Source: Escherichia phage VTCCBPA_211. From it: a DNA stretch of 64,000 nt. The translations under genes and the position numbers were made by a program. Below are positions 17,493 to 19,602 of this stretch, one piece after another. Location: the sequence record PP989838.1; one strand, 5' to 3'. Numbering within the stretch: position 1 is the stretch's first letter; every line of letters begins with the position of its first letter. The notes below the pieces were generated by a model. The model was not told the origin of the DNA, did no database searches, and saw only the letters and a program-made list of their open reading frames with translations.

Positions 17493-17571
17493 TCAATGGG
17501 TGCCTCTGACAAAGGGGCACAATTTAAAGGTTAATTAGATGAAAGGGTTTACCCTTCAGGTGGATTAGAAA

Positions 17572-19602
17572 ATTTGTGGCATCGTATTAGCTGGCGGTAA
17601 TCTGTCAAGCACCGATTTAGACGTATTCAACCAACTCTTTTATGCTGGAGTATTCCGAGGACAACACTCCTCTGGTATCTTTGGTCAGCGTAAAAGTACT
17701 AAGGAAGTCTTCACTTATAAAGAAGCTCTTCCTTCTTTCGCATTCATCCTACAAGATGAGTACAAGAAGCACACCACCGGTGAAACAGCTTACACTGTAG
17801 CACCTTCATGGATTGTTGGTCACAGCCGTCATGCAACGAAAGGTGCAGTTAACGCCAAGAACGCCCATCCTTTCCAACATGGTAACATCACTCTGGTTCA
17901 TAATGGAACCTTGATGGACCAAGATCTGTTACCTGACAGCAAAAACTTCGAGGTAGACAGTGAGAACATCTGCCACTCTATTAACACTATTGGTGCAGCA
18001 GAGACTATTCAAAAGCTGGATGGTGCTTTCACCTTAATCTGGCATGATGCTTCTGATAACCGTCTTCATATCATCCGTAACGAAGAGCGTCCTTTCCATC
18101 TCGCACGTTGTAACAGAGATTGGTTTGGTGCTTCTGAAGAAGATATGTTGATGTGGATTCTGAAGCGTTCTAAGTCCCATAAGAACCGTATTGACGAGCA
18201 TTTTGAATGTAAAATTGGTACAGAATACATCTTTGATATGTCAAACAACAGTATGACTCTGGTTGAAGAGGTCGCCCACGAGCTTCCGGTTTTTACGGTA
18301 GCCAATCGTTGGGGCAATTATTACTCGAACAACTACAGCCAAAGCAACTATCAAAGTTCCTCAAAAAGCAGTACAAGCAATCCTTACGACACGAAGCCGG
18401 GCGTGACAGCGGCAGACGTTCGTCGAAGAAACGCAGTGGTAAGTCAAAACAAAATCGCAAGCGATCGAAACATTGATATTCGCCGCGATATGACTGTGGA
18501 AATCACTCCGCATGAGTTTGTTCCTTATGCAACTGCCGGTGCTGTTCCTTCTCGTGGTAAGATGATTGGTTATATCTACGATGAGAAATCTCAAGAGTAC
18601 ATCGAAGGTGATGTTCATAACGTAGATATTAAGGCTTATCAGGATGCCCTGAAAGACCCTAAAATTGTTTACCGTGGGACAGTATCCTGCATCTCCGAAG
18701 TCAATGCTATGGTCCGTTTAGTGATCACAGCAGGTCGTTTTGTTGACCCATCTCTGGAGAAAAAGGAGCCTGAGTCTACTACTGCTGACTTTGATGATGA
18801 TATCCCTTTTGACATGAATGATAGTTTCGTCAACAAGAATGGCGTTACTATCACTCGTAAATTCTGGGAAGCACACTCTCATGGTGATTGTGGTGGTTGT
18901 GACAAGCACATTGATTGGAAGGATGCACCTAAAGCAGTCTTCGCATATCAGTGCTATTGGCATACTGAATGTCTGGAAGGTTTGACTAAACCTAAAGATG
19001 AAGAAGAGGAGGAAACTCCTATTGGTGTTTGTGAAATCTGCGGTGAAGTTAAAACGGAGAATGAGTTCGATGAAGAACTTAGTCGTCTTCGTGGTGAAGA
19101 TATCTGTAAAGTCTGCGCTGTAGATGTAAAGAAGAAGGTATCTAATGCTACGATCAAAGATGGTTATGTCTGGATTAAAGCAACAGATACAACAAACGCC
19201 CGTCGTCCTGAGTTTGCTTTACGTGTAACTGAAGATATGATTGGTCGTATGACTGTATTACCTTCCTCAGCGAAACAGACAGGCATCACTCTGGAGGATG
19301 TTGTTGATGCTTATGTTGAGAAACGTAGCAACAGTATTTTTGCAATCTCAACTAAGCCAAAAAAGGAGGAACCTGCTGAGAAAGCAGGTGTGTTTCCTGA
19401 ATCACGAACAGCTCTCCGCAAAACTGTTGTCAGCTTCGACGGAAACCGAAGCACTGACTTCACCAAAGCCATGTGGTCAACCCTCGGATACTGCTCAGAG
19501 TGTTTTAAGCAGATTCCGTGGCGCGATGCTGAAAGTTGTACGCTTGGTTCTATGAATCAAGTTTATTGTAATTCTCCTAAATGTTCATTGAATAGAGGTT
19601 AA
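17572..19602 (+). CDS. class-II (Ntn) glutamine amidotransferase fused to a triple zinc-ribbon C-terminal region (676 aa); apparent ATT start
   Basis: Open frame from 17575 reads CGIVLAGG..GHSRHATKG..NAHPF..VHNGT..DSE..GAFTLIW; the track ORF starts only at 17911; the codon before Cys1 is ATT, preceded by AGGTGG. Confidence 0.75.
   Translation: MCGIVLAGGNLSSTDLDVFNQLFYAGVFRGQHSSGIFGQRKSTKEVFTYKEALPSFAFILQDEYKKHTTGETAYTVAPSWIVGHSRHATKGAVNAKNAHPFQHGNITLVHNGTLMDQDLLPDSKNFEVDSENICHSINTIGAAETIQKLDGAFTLIWHDASDNRLHIIRNEERPFHLARCNRDWFGASEEDMLMWILKRSKSHKNRIDEHFECKIGTEYIFDMSNNSMTLVEEVAHELPVFTVANRWGNYYSNNYSQSNYQSSSKSSTSNPYDTKPGVTAADVRRRNAVVSQNKIASDRNIDIRRDMTVEITPHEFVPYATAGAVPSRGKMIGYIYDEKSQEYIEGDVHNVDIKAYQDALKDPKIVYRGTVSCISEVNAMVRLVITAGRFVDPSLEKKEPESTTADFDDDIPFDMNDSFVNKNGVTITRKFWEAHSHGDCGGCDKHIDWKDAPKAVFAYQCYWHTECLEGLTKPKDEEEEETPIGVCEICGEVKTENEFDEELSRLRGEDICKVCAVDVKKKVSNATIKDGYVWIKATDTTNARRPEFALRVTEDMIGRMTVLPSSAKQTGITLEDVVDAYVEKRSNSIFAISTKPKKEEPAEKAGVFPESRTALRKTVVSFDGNRSTDFTKAMWSTLGYCSECFKQIPWRDAESCTLGSMNQVYCNSPKCSLNRG

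What the first reader, a model, noticed from the sequence alone, without database searches (positions are those of the whole stretch)
17539..17580. The amidotransferase has no canonical start: an AUU codon precedes the catalytic Cys, 3 nt after the stop of a 9-codon upstream ORF
The GATase domain is open and clearly homologous from TGT (Cys) at 17575, but the ORF track begins only at 17911. Ntn amidotransferases need Cys as residue 1 after Met removal, so the initiator must be the codon at 17572-17574, which is ATT. An AGGTGG lies 8 nt upstream of it.

In the same frame the sequence reads ATG AAA GGG TTT ACC CTT CAG GTG GAT TAG AAA ATT TGT GGC. This is a mini-ORF (MKGFTLQVD) with its own AAAGG RBS, and it stops two codons before the Cys.

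I can see three readings:
- (a) Genuine AUU initiation, which is rare in E. coli (infC and pcnB are the classic cases) and sensitive to IF3.
- (b) Termination-reinitiation coupling from the mini-ORF onto AUU.
- (c) An amber codon inside an N-terminal propeptide, as some PurF enzymes have, or a sequencing error.

Any of these would make expression of the module's ammonia donor unusually regulated.
Basis: seen in the sequence. Interest (0 to 1): 0.55.

Follow-up and report, generated by a model that had tools for sequence, protein, structure and literature searches.

The report
AUU start codon of phage amidotransferase
A phiEco32-type coliphage starts its glutamine amidotransferase at the rare codon AUU, inside a leader that is identical in 96 phage genomes, and the same rare-start design (small hairpin, strong ribosome-binding site, AUU) recurs in many unrelated phages that carry this enzyme.

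Summary
The sequence reads ATG 17539 (9-codon mini-ORF), TAG 17566, AAA, ATT 17572, TGT (Cys) 17575, with AGGTGG 8 nt before the ATT.

The window is a phiEco32-like Kuravirus. The phiEco32, SU10 and Bas89 records I opened already begin this CDS at the ATT. Paul, WFI101126, SU7, YF01 and others truncate it.

Genuine AUU initiation is the best explanation:
- The first 112 codons evolve as coding sequence.
- The family profile places this Cys on Cys1 of E. coli GlmS.
- TAG and ATT are unchanged in 96 phage genomes.
- No suppressor tRNA was found.

- **Invariant leader:** 52 nt (17525-17576) do not vary across three genera, and 92% of the leader survives in an Aeromonas phage of another family.
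- **Recurrent rare start:** among 85 lineages of this enzyme, 15 use ATT or ATC, about 12 independent switches. These lineages carry a hairpin directly 5' of a strong Shine-Dalgarno at 8-nt spacing (9/15 versus 0/66 ATG lineages).

The mini-ORF is clade-specific and may add infC-like stop-3nt-AUU reinitiation. One relative with the same leader has CTG in place of its ATG. The amber-propeptide and sequencing-error readings are rejected. Nothing here is experimentally verified.

The parts
16389..17492 (+). Upstream gene (Amidoligase_2; phi32_84 homologue). Its stop lies 79 nt before the ATT, so the amidotransferase is not directly coupled to it.
17500..17520 (+). Intergenic 8-bp hairpin GTGCCTCT-GACAA-AGGGGCAC. 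It is kept through a compensatory U-A to C-G change in Suseptimavirus (GCGCTCT...AGGGCGC). Its role is unknown (RNA stability, processing or a weak terminator), and no U-tract follows it.
17525..17576 (+). 52-nt invariant leader. It has no substitution in 16 distinct sequences from Kuravirus, Suseptimavirus and Nieuwekanaalvirus. The overlapping 60-nt query (17523-17582) is 92% identical in Aeromonas phage BUCT695 (Grimontviridae).
17526..17530 (+). AAAGG, a Shine-Dalgarno-like sequence 8 nt before the mini-ORF ATG. TTTAAAGG-N8-ATG matches the amidotransferase's own initiation region in the ATG-type relative L019. BUCT695 lacks it.
17539..17568 (+). Mini-ORF ATG...TAG (MKGFTLQVD), in frame with the amidotransferase. 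It is specific to this clade. Both substitutions in BUCT695 are nonsynonymous, and L195 has CTG in place of the ATG.
17540..17558 (+). Leader hairpin UGAA(A)GGG-UUUA-CCCUUCA: 7 bp with one bulged A. It includes the U and G of the mini-ORF AUG and ends on the first base of the Shine-Dalgarno. The loop changes in BUCT695. L195 keeps the six AAGGGA/UCCCUU pairs, adding an A-U pair at the loop end and lacking the two outer pairs.
17558..17563 (+). Shine-Dalgarno AGGTGG for the ATT, followed by the 8-nt spacer ATTAGAAA (17564-17571).
17566..17568 (+). In-frame TAG, two codons before the Cys codon. It is the mini-ORF stop and blocks any N-terminal extension of the enzyme. The stop-3nt-AUU geometry matches the thrS-infC junction.
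17572..17574 (+). ATT, the inferred initiation codon (AUU read by fMet-tRNA).
17575..17577 (+). TGT, the catalytic N-terminal Cys. It aligns with Cys1 of E. coli GlmS.
17572..19602 (+). Full amidotransferase CDS of 676 codons plus stop. It comprises an N-terminal class-II GATase domain of about 230 aa and a Cys-rich C-terminal extension of about 440 aa with no Pfam match.

Best explanation
The amidotransferase (phi32_83 homologue) is translated from the AUU at 17572. fMet-tRNA reads the AUU, and deformylase and methionine aminopeptidase then expose Cys1, the Ntn nucleophile. Initiation is driven by a stand-alone, strongly constrained initiation region: a 7-bp hairpin (17540-17558) abutting the Shine-Dalgarno AGGUGG, an 8-nt A-rich spacer containing an in-frame UAG, then AUU-UGU. 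The weak, IF3-discriminated start codon, combined with a strong and structurally buttressed ribosome-binding site, most likely sets a low or physiology-gated output of a glutamine-consuming enzyme. The gating could respond to IF3 level, ppGpp or nutrient state. The 9-codon mini-ORF that stops 3 nt before the AUU is a clade-specific accessory. It may feed terminating ribosomes into the AUU, as at the thrS-infC junction, but it is not the core of the design. Shown here: the sequence, its conservation, coding periodicity, homology of Cys1, absence of alternative starts, and recurrence of the architecture. Inferred: actual initiation at AUU, Met removal, and the regulatory purpose.
For: (1) The N-terminal 112 codons are under coding selection in this frame (variable sites 28/18/98 by codon position). 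The family profile aligns Cys to Cys1 of GlmS 1xff, and the R-G, H-N-G and D-S motifs are invariant. (2) Only AAA and ATT lie between the in-frame TAG and Cys. (3) ATT, TAG and the Shine-Dalgarno are identical in 96 phage genomes and are kept in BUCT695. (4) In 135 distinct homologues the codon before Cys is always initiation-competent: ATG 109, ATT 20, ATC 2, TTG 2, GTG 1, plus one ATG-TGC-TGT. (5) ATT/ATC arose about 12 times on the tree. Most ATT lineages have an ATG-type nearest relative, for example L087 and L097 at 98% identity. In L018 the ATT and its Shine-Dalgarno align with the ATG and Shine-Dalgarno of L027. (6) ATT/ATC lineages have no canonical in-frame start upstream, except L018. 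(7) They share a distinctive initiation region. A hairpin directly 5' of the Shine-Dalgarno occurs in 9/15 ATT/ATC lineages versus 0/66 ATG lineages (Fisher 2e-8). A perfect AGGAGG occurs in 6/15 versus 1/66, and an 8-nt spacer in 10/15 versus 12/66. The fixed-window test gives p=1.6e-6. (8) The phiEco32, SU10 and Bas89 records annotate the ATT start. (9) The protein was detected by mass spectrometry in SU10 (9 peptides; PMC4281155). (10) AUU supports initiation in E. coli at about 1-2% of AUG in one reporter, six to eight times below AUG in another, and is IF3- and ppGpp-sensitive (10.1101/063800, PMC3592434, PMC5499595).
Against: There is no direct evidence for the protein's N-terminus. The SU10 proteomics table lists the protein at 63.8 kDa, about the mass of the 563-aa ORF from TTG 17911, not the 676-aa product, so N-terminal peptides were probably not searchable (my inference). 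Because the leader is invariant, conservation alone cannot separate the roles of the AUU, UAG, hairpin and mini-ORF within the phiEco32 clade. The minimum-free-energy fold of the leader is not better than shuffled sequence (z=-0.17), so the hairpin's support is comparative, not thermodynamic. The ATT-hairpin association comes from uncultured contigs whose hosts are unknown. The upstream control window also differs slightly between groups (p=0.0095). The regulatory purpose is inference.
Confidence: 0.85

Rival explanations
1. Termination-reinitiation is the main route. Ribosomes translate the mini-ORF (17539-17568), melt the hairpin, terminate at UAG, and restart 3 nt downstream at AUU. De novo initiation at AUU is minor.
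For: The stop-3nt-AUU geometry is the same as thrS-UAA-GGU-AUU-infC. For that junction, reinitiation and de novo initiation contribute about equally in reporters (PMC3592434). The mini-ORF has its own AAAGG-N8-ATG. The two lineages that have the mini-ORF carry weaker Shine-Dalgarno sequences for the AUU (AGGTGG, AGGCGG) than most ATT lineages without one (AGGAGG). The minimum-free-energy fold can sequester the AUU's Shine-Dalgarno.
Against: BUCT695 keeps the leader but lacks a Shine-Dalgarno for the mini-ORF. L195 keeps the hairpin, Shine-Dalgarno, TAG and ATT but has CTG instead of the mini-ORF ATG. Apart from a 4-codon ATG-initiated mini-ORF in L173, the other ATT/ATC lineages have no comparable mini-ORF, and they sit less close to upstream stops than ATG lineages do (median 13 versus 2 nt). 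The U and G of the mini-ORF AUG are paired in the hairpin. Both substitutions inside the mini-ORF are nonsynonymous.
Confidence: 0.25
2. The TAG is decoded by readthrough or suppression. The protein would then be made from ATG 17539 or GTG 17560 with a short propeptide that is removed autocatalytically, as in B. subtilis PurF. Alternatively, the TAG or ATT is a sequencing error.
For: The 33 nt between the ATG and TGT are in frame. L018 has GTG-ACT-AAA-ATT-TGT with no stop. Some Ntn amidotransferases do have propeptides (my own knowledge).
Against: TAG and ATT are identical in 96 independently sequenced genomes. The only tRNA in the window is Arg-TCT. There is no coding-type variation in the leader (0/50 sites). 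L195 has two consecutive stops, TAG TAA, immediately before the ATT. L051, L189 and BUCT695 have TAG-AAA-ATT, and 14 of the 15 other ATT/ATC lineages checked (all but L018) have no canonical start upstream in frame. In L018 the ATT, not the GTG, aligns with the ATG of its 83%-identical relative L027.
Confidence: 0.03
3. The N-terminal domain is not made. Translation starts at an internal canonical codon (ATG 17914 or another), as many GenBank records annotate, giving a protein without the glutaminase nucleophile.
For: Many records annotate it this way: Paul and WFI101126 at the ATG 17914 equivalent, and SU7, EP335, KBNP1711 and YF01 at other internal ATGs. Gene finders do not consider ATT.
Against: There is strong third-position-biased variation through 17575-17910 (28/18/98). 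The catalytic motifs are invariant. The different records choose different internal starts, which marks the choices as annotation artefacts.
Confidence: 0.04
4. The 52-nt invariance reflects a DNA-level signal, such as a promoter for the phage sigma factor gp36 or a protein-binding or recombination site, not translation control.
For: ATG-type relatives and BUCT695 carry TTTAAATGTAA just upstream. This resembles the gp36 promoter consensus tAATGTAtA, whose transcription start lies 6-8 bp downstream (PMC8948821). In BUCT695 that would place the start at about the mini-ORF AUG.
Against: In the window the motif is AAAGGTTAA, matching 5/9 positions with two core mismatches. The six mapped gp36 promoters precede genes 6, 13, 26, 40, 58 and 68, not gene 83. 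No sigma-70-like promoter lies on the + strand in the leader. The element is unique in the window. The invariant run extends through the Shine-Dalgarno, spacer, AUU and Cys codon, as expected for an initiation region.
Confidence: 0.1

Closest known systems
E. coli infC (IF3) initiation region at the thrS-infC junction
   Same: An AUU initiation codon with a Shine-Dalgarno, and an upstream ORF stop exactly 3 nt before the AUU (UAA GGU AUU versus UAG AAA AUU here). The AUU is conserved among orthologues. By analogy, sensitivity to IF3 is expected (PMC3592434, PMC5499595).
   Different: Here the upstream ORF is a 9-codon mini-ORF, not a full gene. The product is not IF3, so there is no autoregulatory logic. 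A hairpin abuts the Shine-Dalgarno. No experimental data exist.
E. coli pcnB and E. faecalis ebpA (AUU/ATT starts that attenuate expression)
   Same: A rare ATT start was first mis-annotated at a downstream ATG, and the start codon limits expression (PMC4447247; 10.1101/063800).
   Different: Those are single genes. Here ATT/ATC recurs in about 18% of lineages of one phage enzyme family, together with a shared hairpin, strong Shine-Dalgarno and 8-nt-spacer architecture.
Class-II (Ntn) glutamine amidotransferases GlmS, PurF and AsnB
   Same: The N-terminal Cys aligns with Cys1, and the R-G, H-N-G and D-S motifs are conserved. Cys must be residue 1 of the mature enzyme.
   Different: The glutaminase domain is fused to a Cys-rich extension of about 440 aa with no Pfam match, not to a known synthase domain. 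Nearly all cellular members start ATG-TGY (my own knowledge).
B. subtilis PurF-type N-terminal propeptide
   Same: A short in-frame peptide-coding stretch precedes the catalytic Cys.
   Different: An in-frame TAG, invariant in 96 genomes, separates it from the Cys. No readthrough signal or suppressor was found.

Membership tests
Class-II (Ntn) glutamine amidotransferase | Pfam GATase_6/GATase_7 domain above the curated cut-off | tested here: met
   GATase_6 scores 55.1 bits against a cut-off of 27. GATase_7 scores 27.4 against 25.
Class-II (Ntn) glutamine amidotransferase | The nucleophilic Cys aligns with Cys1 of solved members, and the Arg, Asn-Gly oxyanion and Asp motifs are conserved | tested here: met
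   The A1 profile aligns its Cys with residue 1 of GlmS 1xff (E=2.8e-13). C1, R28-G29, H109-N110-G111 and D128-S129 are invariant in 15 sequences.
Class-II (Ntn) glutamine amidotransferase | Cys is residue 1 of the mature protein, after initiator Met removal or propeptide cleavage | not testable with these tools
   This needs N-terminal sequencing. The genomic arrangement (ATT directly before TGT) is compatible with it.
AUU-initiated genes (infC/pcnB type) | An AUU in the initiation position with no canonical in-frame alternative that preserves the protein | tested here: met
   The sequence is TAG-AAA-ATT-TGT. The next canonical in-frame start is 113 codons downstream.
AUU-initiated genes (infC/pcnB type) | A Shine-Dalgarno at functional spacing | tested here: met
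   AGGTGG with an 8-nt spacer.
AUU-initiated genes (infC/pcnB type) | Phylogenetic conservation of the rare codon | tested here: met
   Identical in 96 phage records and in BUCT695. ATT/ATC recurs in 15 lineages.
AUU-initiated genes (infC/pcnB type) | Demonstrated initiation at AUU and IF3-dependent discrimination | not testable with these tools
   I found no toeprint, ribosome-profiling or N-terminal data in the literature searches.
uORF termination-reinitiation coupling | A translatable upstream ORF whose stop lies within a few nt of the downstream start | tested here: met
   AAAGG-N8-ATG, 9 codons, with the TAG 3 nt before the ATT.
uORF termination-reinitiation coupling | The uORF start signals are conserved wherever the leader is conserved | tested here: not met
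   BUCT695 lacks the uORF Shine-Dalgarno. L195 has CTG in place of the ATG.
Ntn propeptide / amber readthrough | An open frame from a canonical start through to the Cys, or a suppressor or readthrough signal | tested here: not met
   The TAG is invariant. The only tRNA found is Arg-TCT. L195 has a TAG TAA doublet.
phiEco32 gp36-dependent promoter | Consensus tAATGTAtA 6-8 bp upstream of the transcript start | tested here: not met
   The window has AAAGGTTAA (5/9 positions, my count). Mapped promoters are elsewhere (PMC8948821).
Known RNA families (Rfam) | A match at or above the gathering score | tested here: not met
   The only hit is astro_FSE at 16.4 bits against a gathering score of 70, E=0.12.

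The most novel reading that the evidence does not exclude
The hairpin, strong Shine-Dalgarno, 8-nt spacer and AUU form a distinct, selectable translation-control cassette for phage Ntn amidotransferases. It has been gained, kept or exchanged many times. The BUCT695 leader is 92% identical in nucleotides to phiEco32's, although the two enzymes are only about 56% identical in amino acids and each has a closer ATG-type relative. The cassette would couple output of a glutamine-consuming enzyme to the host's translational state (IF3 to ribosome ratio, ppGpp, nutrient level). The 5' hairpin would stabilise the 30S-mRNA complex long enough for a near-cognate start to be accepted.
Probability: 0.35. 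Interest if true: 0.7.

Novelty: new variant of a known kind. Interest (0 to 1): 0.55.

Why it matters
Confirmed AUU starts in E. coli number two, infC and pcnB (10.1101/063800). This is a strong third candidate that the E. coli ribosome translates, and it sits in an easily manipulated lytic phage.

**A natural probe for rare starts.** An Ntn enzyme must begin Met-Cys, so the start codon can be read directly from the DNA. This enzyme family therefore reveals non-canonical initiation without experiment. It shows ATT/ATC in about 18% of lineages, far more than GTG or TTG, the reverse of normal genomes (GTG 13.8%, TTG 4.35%; 10.1101/063800).

**A testable design rule.** The rare start always comes with a particular design: a hairpin abutting a strong Shine-Dalgarno at 8 nt. 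This gives a concrete, testable rule for how bacteria-type ribosomes can be made to use a near-cognate start.

**An annotation error to fix.** Many of the GenBank records I read truncate this gene and delete its catalytic Cys (Paul, WFI101126, SU7, EP335, KBNP1711, YF01, BUCT695). That mis-states the function of the phage's amidoligase/amidotransferase module.

Tried and rejected
- **Sequencing error or strain-specific mutation:** rejected. 96 records are identical over 17536-17579.
- **Suppressor tRNA:** only tRNA-Arg(TCT) is present in the window.
- **Programmed -1/+1 frameshift or bypassing:** GGGTTTA resembles a slippery heptamer, but it is in the wrong register, is broken in BUCT695 (GGGTTAA), and the mini-ORF is already in frame with the enzyme. 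The Rfam astro_FSE hit is far below threshold (16.4 versus 70 bits).
- **Out-of-frame starts:** TTG 17574 and GTG 17576 give only ORFs of 8 and 4 codons (read).
- **Antisense promoter:** a sigma-70-like site lies on the minus strand at 17608-17581, but its -35 hexamer is not conserved in other genera.
- **Promoter or terminator in the leader on the + strand:** none found. The terminator annotated in WFI101126 maps inside the coding region at about 17654-17675.
- **HNH endonuclease near the gene in YF01 and Bas89:** it lies downstream of the amidotransferase, not at the leader.
- **Repetition of the leader elsewhere in the window:** none.
- **Translational coupling as the general reason for ATT:** rejected. 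ATT lineages are less tightly packed against upstream genes than ATG lineages.
- **Single-sequence PDB search:** no hit. The family profile was needed.
- **Literature:** searches found nothing on this start codon. The 2008 and 2012 phiEco32 papers are not held.
- **Thermodynamic support for a leader fold:** absent (z=-0.17).
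Full report
**1. What is there**

The window is a phiEco32-like podophage (Kuravirus). A 2.3-kb query around the finding is 97-98% identical to about 70 Escherichia and Shigella phage records.

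ATG 17539 opens a 9-codon ORF (MKGFTLQVD) that ends at TAG 17566. Then come AAA, ATT 17572, TGT 17575 and GGC.
- AGGTGG (17558-17563) lies 8 nt before the ATT.
- AAAGG (17526-17530) lies 8 nt before the mini-ORF ATG.
- The mechanical ORF list begins the long ORF only at TTG 17911.
- The frame is open from 17569 to the stop at 19602.

**2. The N-terminal part is real and needs Cys1**

Pfam finds a class-II glutamine amidotransferase domain (GATase_6, 55 bits). The neighbours are Amidoligase_2, the phiEco32-type COOH-NH2 ligase, an ATP-grasp protein and a gamma-glutamyl cyclotransferase.

A profile of 15 relatives aligns the Cys with residue 1 of the E. coli GlmS glutaminase domain (1xff, E=2.8e-13). 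C1, R28-G29, H109-N110-G111 and D128-S129 are invariant.

In an alignment of 16 distinct sequences from three genera, variable sites in 17575-17910 fall 28/18/98 on codon positions 1/2/3. So the 112 codons that precede any canonical start are translated in this frame. Between the in-frame TAG and the Cys there are only AAA and ATT.

**3. Not an error, not readthrough**

The 44 nt at 17536-17579 are 100% identical in 96 Escherichia and Shigella phage records. The only tRNA in the window is Arg-TCT.

The phiEco32 records (EU330206 and NC_010324, gene phi32_83), SU10 and Bas89 already start the CDS at this ATT. LAMP and several other Bas records carry a CDS over the leader and probably do too. 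Others pick assorted internal ATGs and so delete the catalytic Cys:
- Paul and WFI101126 start at the 17914 equivalent.
- SU7, IME267, ECBP2, EP335, KBNP1711, YF01 and BUCT695 start elsewhere.

The basic observation is therefore already in the databases. I found no paper that discusses or tests it. SU10 proteomics detected the protein with 9 peptides but did not map its N-terminus (PMC4281155).

**4. An invariant leader**

Positions 17525-17576 form a 52-nt run with no substitution in the 16 distinct sequences. Outside it 49% of columns vary, 17 of the 32 intergenic positions just upstream vary, and 86% of third codon positions just downstream vary. The chance of such a run is about 5e-13.

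A mini-ORF under peptide selection would vary at synonymous sites, and none do. The constraint is therefore on the nucleic acid.

Aeromonas phage BUCT695 (Grimontviridae) keeps the leader at 92% nucleotide identity. Its enzyme is only about 56% identical to phiEco32's and is closer to an ATG-type homologue (60%). Its differences from phiEco32 are informative:
- The hairpin loop changes (TTTA to TTAA).
- AGGTGG becomes AGGCGG.
- The mini-ORF's AAAGG is lost.
- Both substitutions inside the mini-ORF are nonsynonymous (F to L, V to A).

A contig in the Herbiconiux daphne assembly (L195, 60% identity) has the same leader type with three changes:
- The hairpin gains an A-U pair at the loop end (AAGGGA-UUUA-UCCCUU) but lacks the two outer pairs.
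- CTG replaces the mini-ORF ATG.
- TAG TAA sits immediately before the ATT.

Across the three versions, the conserved parts are the hairpin, the Shine-Dalgarno, the in-frame stop and the AUU. The mini-ORF start signals are not conserved.

The hairpin is UGAA(A)GGG-UUUA-CCCUUCA at 17540-17558. It has 7 bp, it contains the U and G of the mini-ORF AUG, and it ends on the first base of the Shine-Dalgarno. On its own the leader does not fold better than shuffled sequence (z=-0.17). The evidence for the hairpin is comparative.

**5. The wider family**

I collected homologous loci from IMG/VR, JGI metagenomes, GTDB genomes and GenBank phages. I then located the Cys codon in each.
- In 135 distinct N-terminal domains the preceding codon is ATG 109, ATT 20, ATC 2, TTG 2 and GTG 1, plus one ATG-TGC-TGT.
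- Every one of these is an initiation-competent codon.
- ATT/ATC greatly outnumbers GTG and TTG. This reverses normal usage, which is ATG 81.8%, GTG 13.8% and TTG 4.35%, with two confirmed AUU genes in E. coli (10.1101/063800).

On a neighbour-joining tree, Fitch parsimony needs 12 ATG to ATT/ATC changes. Most ATT lineages have an ATG-type nearest relative, for example L087 and L097 at 98%, L143 and L151 at 68%, and phiEco32 and L019 at 73.5%. None of the ATT/ATC lineages except L018 has an in-frame ATG, GTG or TTG between the upstream stop and the Cys. In L018 the ATT and its Shine-Dalgarno align with the ATG and Shine-Dalgarno of its 83%-identical relative L027.

**6. A shared design**

I grouped the loci into lineages at 70% identity, giving 15 ATT/ATC, 66 ATG and 4 other.

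| Feature | ATT/ATC lineages | ATG lineages |
|---|---|---|
| Stable hairpin in the 26 nt directly 5' of the Shine-Dalgarno (MFE at or below -5 kcal/mol) | 9/15 | 0/66 (Fisher 2e-8) |
| Perfect AGGAGG | 6/15 | 1/66 |
| Spacer of exactly 8 nt | 10/15 | 12/66 |
| Median gap to the upstream ORF stop | 13 nt | 2 nt |

- A fixed window (-45 to -12) gives p=1.6e-6. A downstream control window gives p=0.81 and an upstream control window p=0.0095.
- The stems have unrelated sequences, for example GAACCT/AGGTTC, CCTAGA/TCTAGG, CCTGA/TCAGG, CAAGC/GCTTG and ATGC/GCAT, yet each ends 0-3 nt from the Shine-Dalgarno.
- Two of the TTG-type lineages (L032, L192) show the same hairpin and Shine-Dalgarno arrangement by eye.
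- ATG-type genes usually abut the upstream gene, so coupling is not what distinguishes ATT genes.
- Restricting to lineages with a gap over 15 nt still gives 5/7 versus 0/23. This is my arithmetic, p about 1.5e-4.
- The Shine-Dalgarno to start segment is deeply similar across the family. Compare GAGGATTATAAGATG in L029, GGAGGATTATAAAATT in L050, GGAGGATTAGAAAATT in L051 and L189, and GGTGGATTAGAAAATT here. ATG and ATT evidently toggle within one ancestral context.

**7. Mechanism**

The best-supported reading is de novo initiation at AUU 17572, on a stand-alone initiation region whose strong Shine-Dalgarno and abutting hairpin compensate for a weak, IF3-discriminated codon. Removal of fMet then exposes Cys1.

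AUU gives about 1-2% of AUG in one E. coli reporter and six to eight times less than AUG in another. AUU mRNAs compete poorly and are hit hard by nutrient limitation, ppGpp and IF3 (10.1101/063800, PMC3592434, PMC5499595). I infer that the design keeps a glutamine-hydrolysing enzyme low, or gates it to the host's translational state. I could not test this.

The stop-3nt-AUU geometry equals the thrS-infC junction, where reinitiation and de novo initiation contribute about equally (PMC3592434). The mini-ORF may therefore add reinitiation in phiEco32. The BUCT695 and L195 variants make it an accessory, not the core.

Comparison with L019 (TTTAAAGG-N8-ATG|TGT) suggests the mini-ORF ATG is the ancestral enzyme start. 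On this view the hairpin plus the second Shine-Dalgarno is an insertion or duplication of about 30 nt, flanked by ATTAGA repeats. This is inference.

**8. Verdict**

Reading (a) is supported with confidence 0.85, (b) is possible as an add-on (0.25), and (c) is rejected.

The AUU start itself is already annotated for phiEco32, so that part is not new. As far as I could find, three things are new:
- the invariant leader;
- the polyphyletic recurrence of ATT/ATC in this enzyme family;
- its tight association with a hairpin, strong Shine-Dalgarno and 8-nt-spacer design.

I rate it a new variant of a known kind (AUU-initiated genes), of moderate interest. It is directly testable with reporters, toeprinting and N-terminal proteomics.

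Noticed in passing
window 17500-17520: An intergenic hairpin between the amidoligase and amidotransferase genes. It is kept through a compensatory U-A to C-G change between Kuravirus (GTGCCTCT/AGGGGCAC) and Suseptimavirus (GCGCTCT/AGGGCGC). No U-tract follows, and its function is unknown.
   Followed up: partly
L013, L014, L108, L109, L015 (40 nt upstream of the Cys codon); L182 2500-2515: ATG-type relatives and BUCT695 carry TTTAAATGTAA(A/T) just upstream of the amidotransferase. This resembles the phiEco32 gp36 promoter consensus tAATGTAtA. In the window it has decayed to TTTAAAGGTTAA. In BUCT695 a transcript start 6-8 bp downstream would fall at about the mini-ORF AUG, which could give a leaderless mini-ORF.
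   Followed up: partly
window 18300-19602: The C-terminal part of the amidotransferase, about 440 aa, has no Pfam match. It contains several CxxC-type Cys clusters (for example CGGCDKH...CYWHTEC, CEICGEV...CKVC, CSECFKQ...CNSPKC). It may be a zinc-binding acceptor or targeting domain.
   Followed up: no
GenBank records of phiEco32-like phages: Annotation of this gene is inconsistent. Many records start at various internal ATGs and lose the catalytic Cys. Some mislabel the upstream amidoligase as the aminotransferase (EP335, KBNP1711, ECBP2 note).
   Followed up: yes
L018, L195, L027 (about 83% identical proteins): Three closely related homologues carry three different initiation regions: ATG with AAAGGAAAGGT; ATT with AGGTGA and an upstream in-frame GTG; and ATT with the phiEco32-type hairpin leader. 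The 5' end of this gene looks like a hot spot for rearrangement or cassette exchange.
   Followed up: partly
L192-L195 (NZ_JANLCJ010000xxx, Herbiconiux daphne assembly): Several short contigs in an actinobacterial genome assembly encode phiEco32/7-11-like amidotransferases with TTG, GTG and ATT starts. These are probably phage contamination of the assembly.
   Followed up: no
L182 2305-2470 (BUCT695): An unannotated stretch between gp041 and the leader opens with an ORF (MDKVLKKITHQGDCWLWTGCINSDGYP...) that looks like the N-terminus of an HNH-type homing endonuclease. It may be a remnant.
   Followed up: no
L180 2407-2913; L181 2367-2876: YF01 and KarlSchell_Bas89 have an HNH endonuclease gene inserted directly downstream of the amidotransferase. 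The window lacks it.
   Followed up: partly
window 9380-9456: tRNA-Arg(TCT) is the only tRNA ARAGORN found in the window.
   Followed up: no
L131-L157 clade (marine IMG/VR contigs): A large ATG-type clade has GGA TAA ATT ATG TGY: an in-frame stop and an ATT immediately before the ATG. An in-frame stop within a few codons upstream of the start is common across the family. This fits selection against N-terminally extended, inactive enzyme.
   Followed up: no
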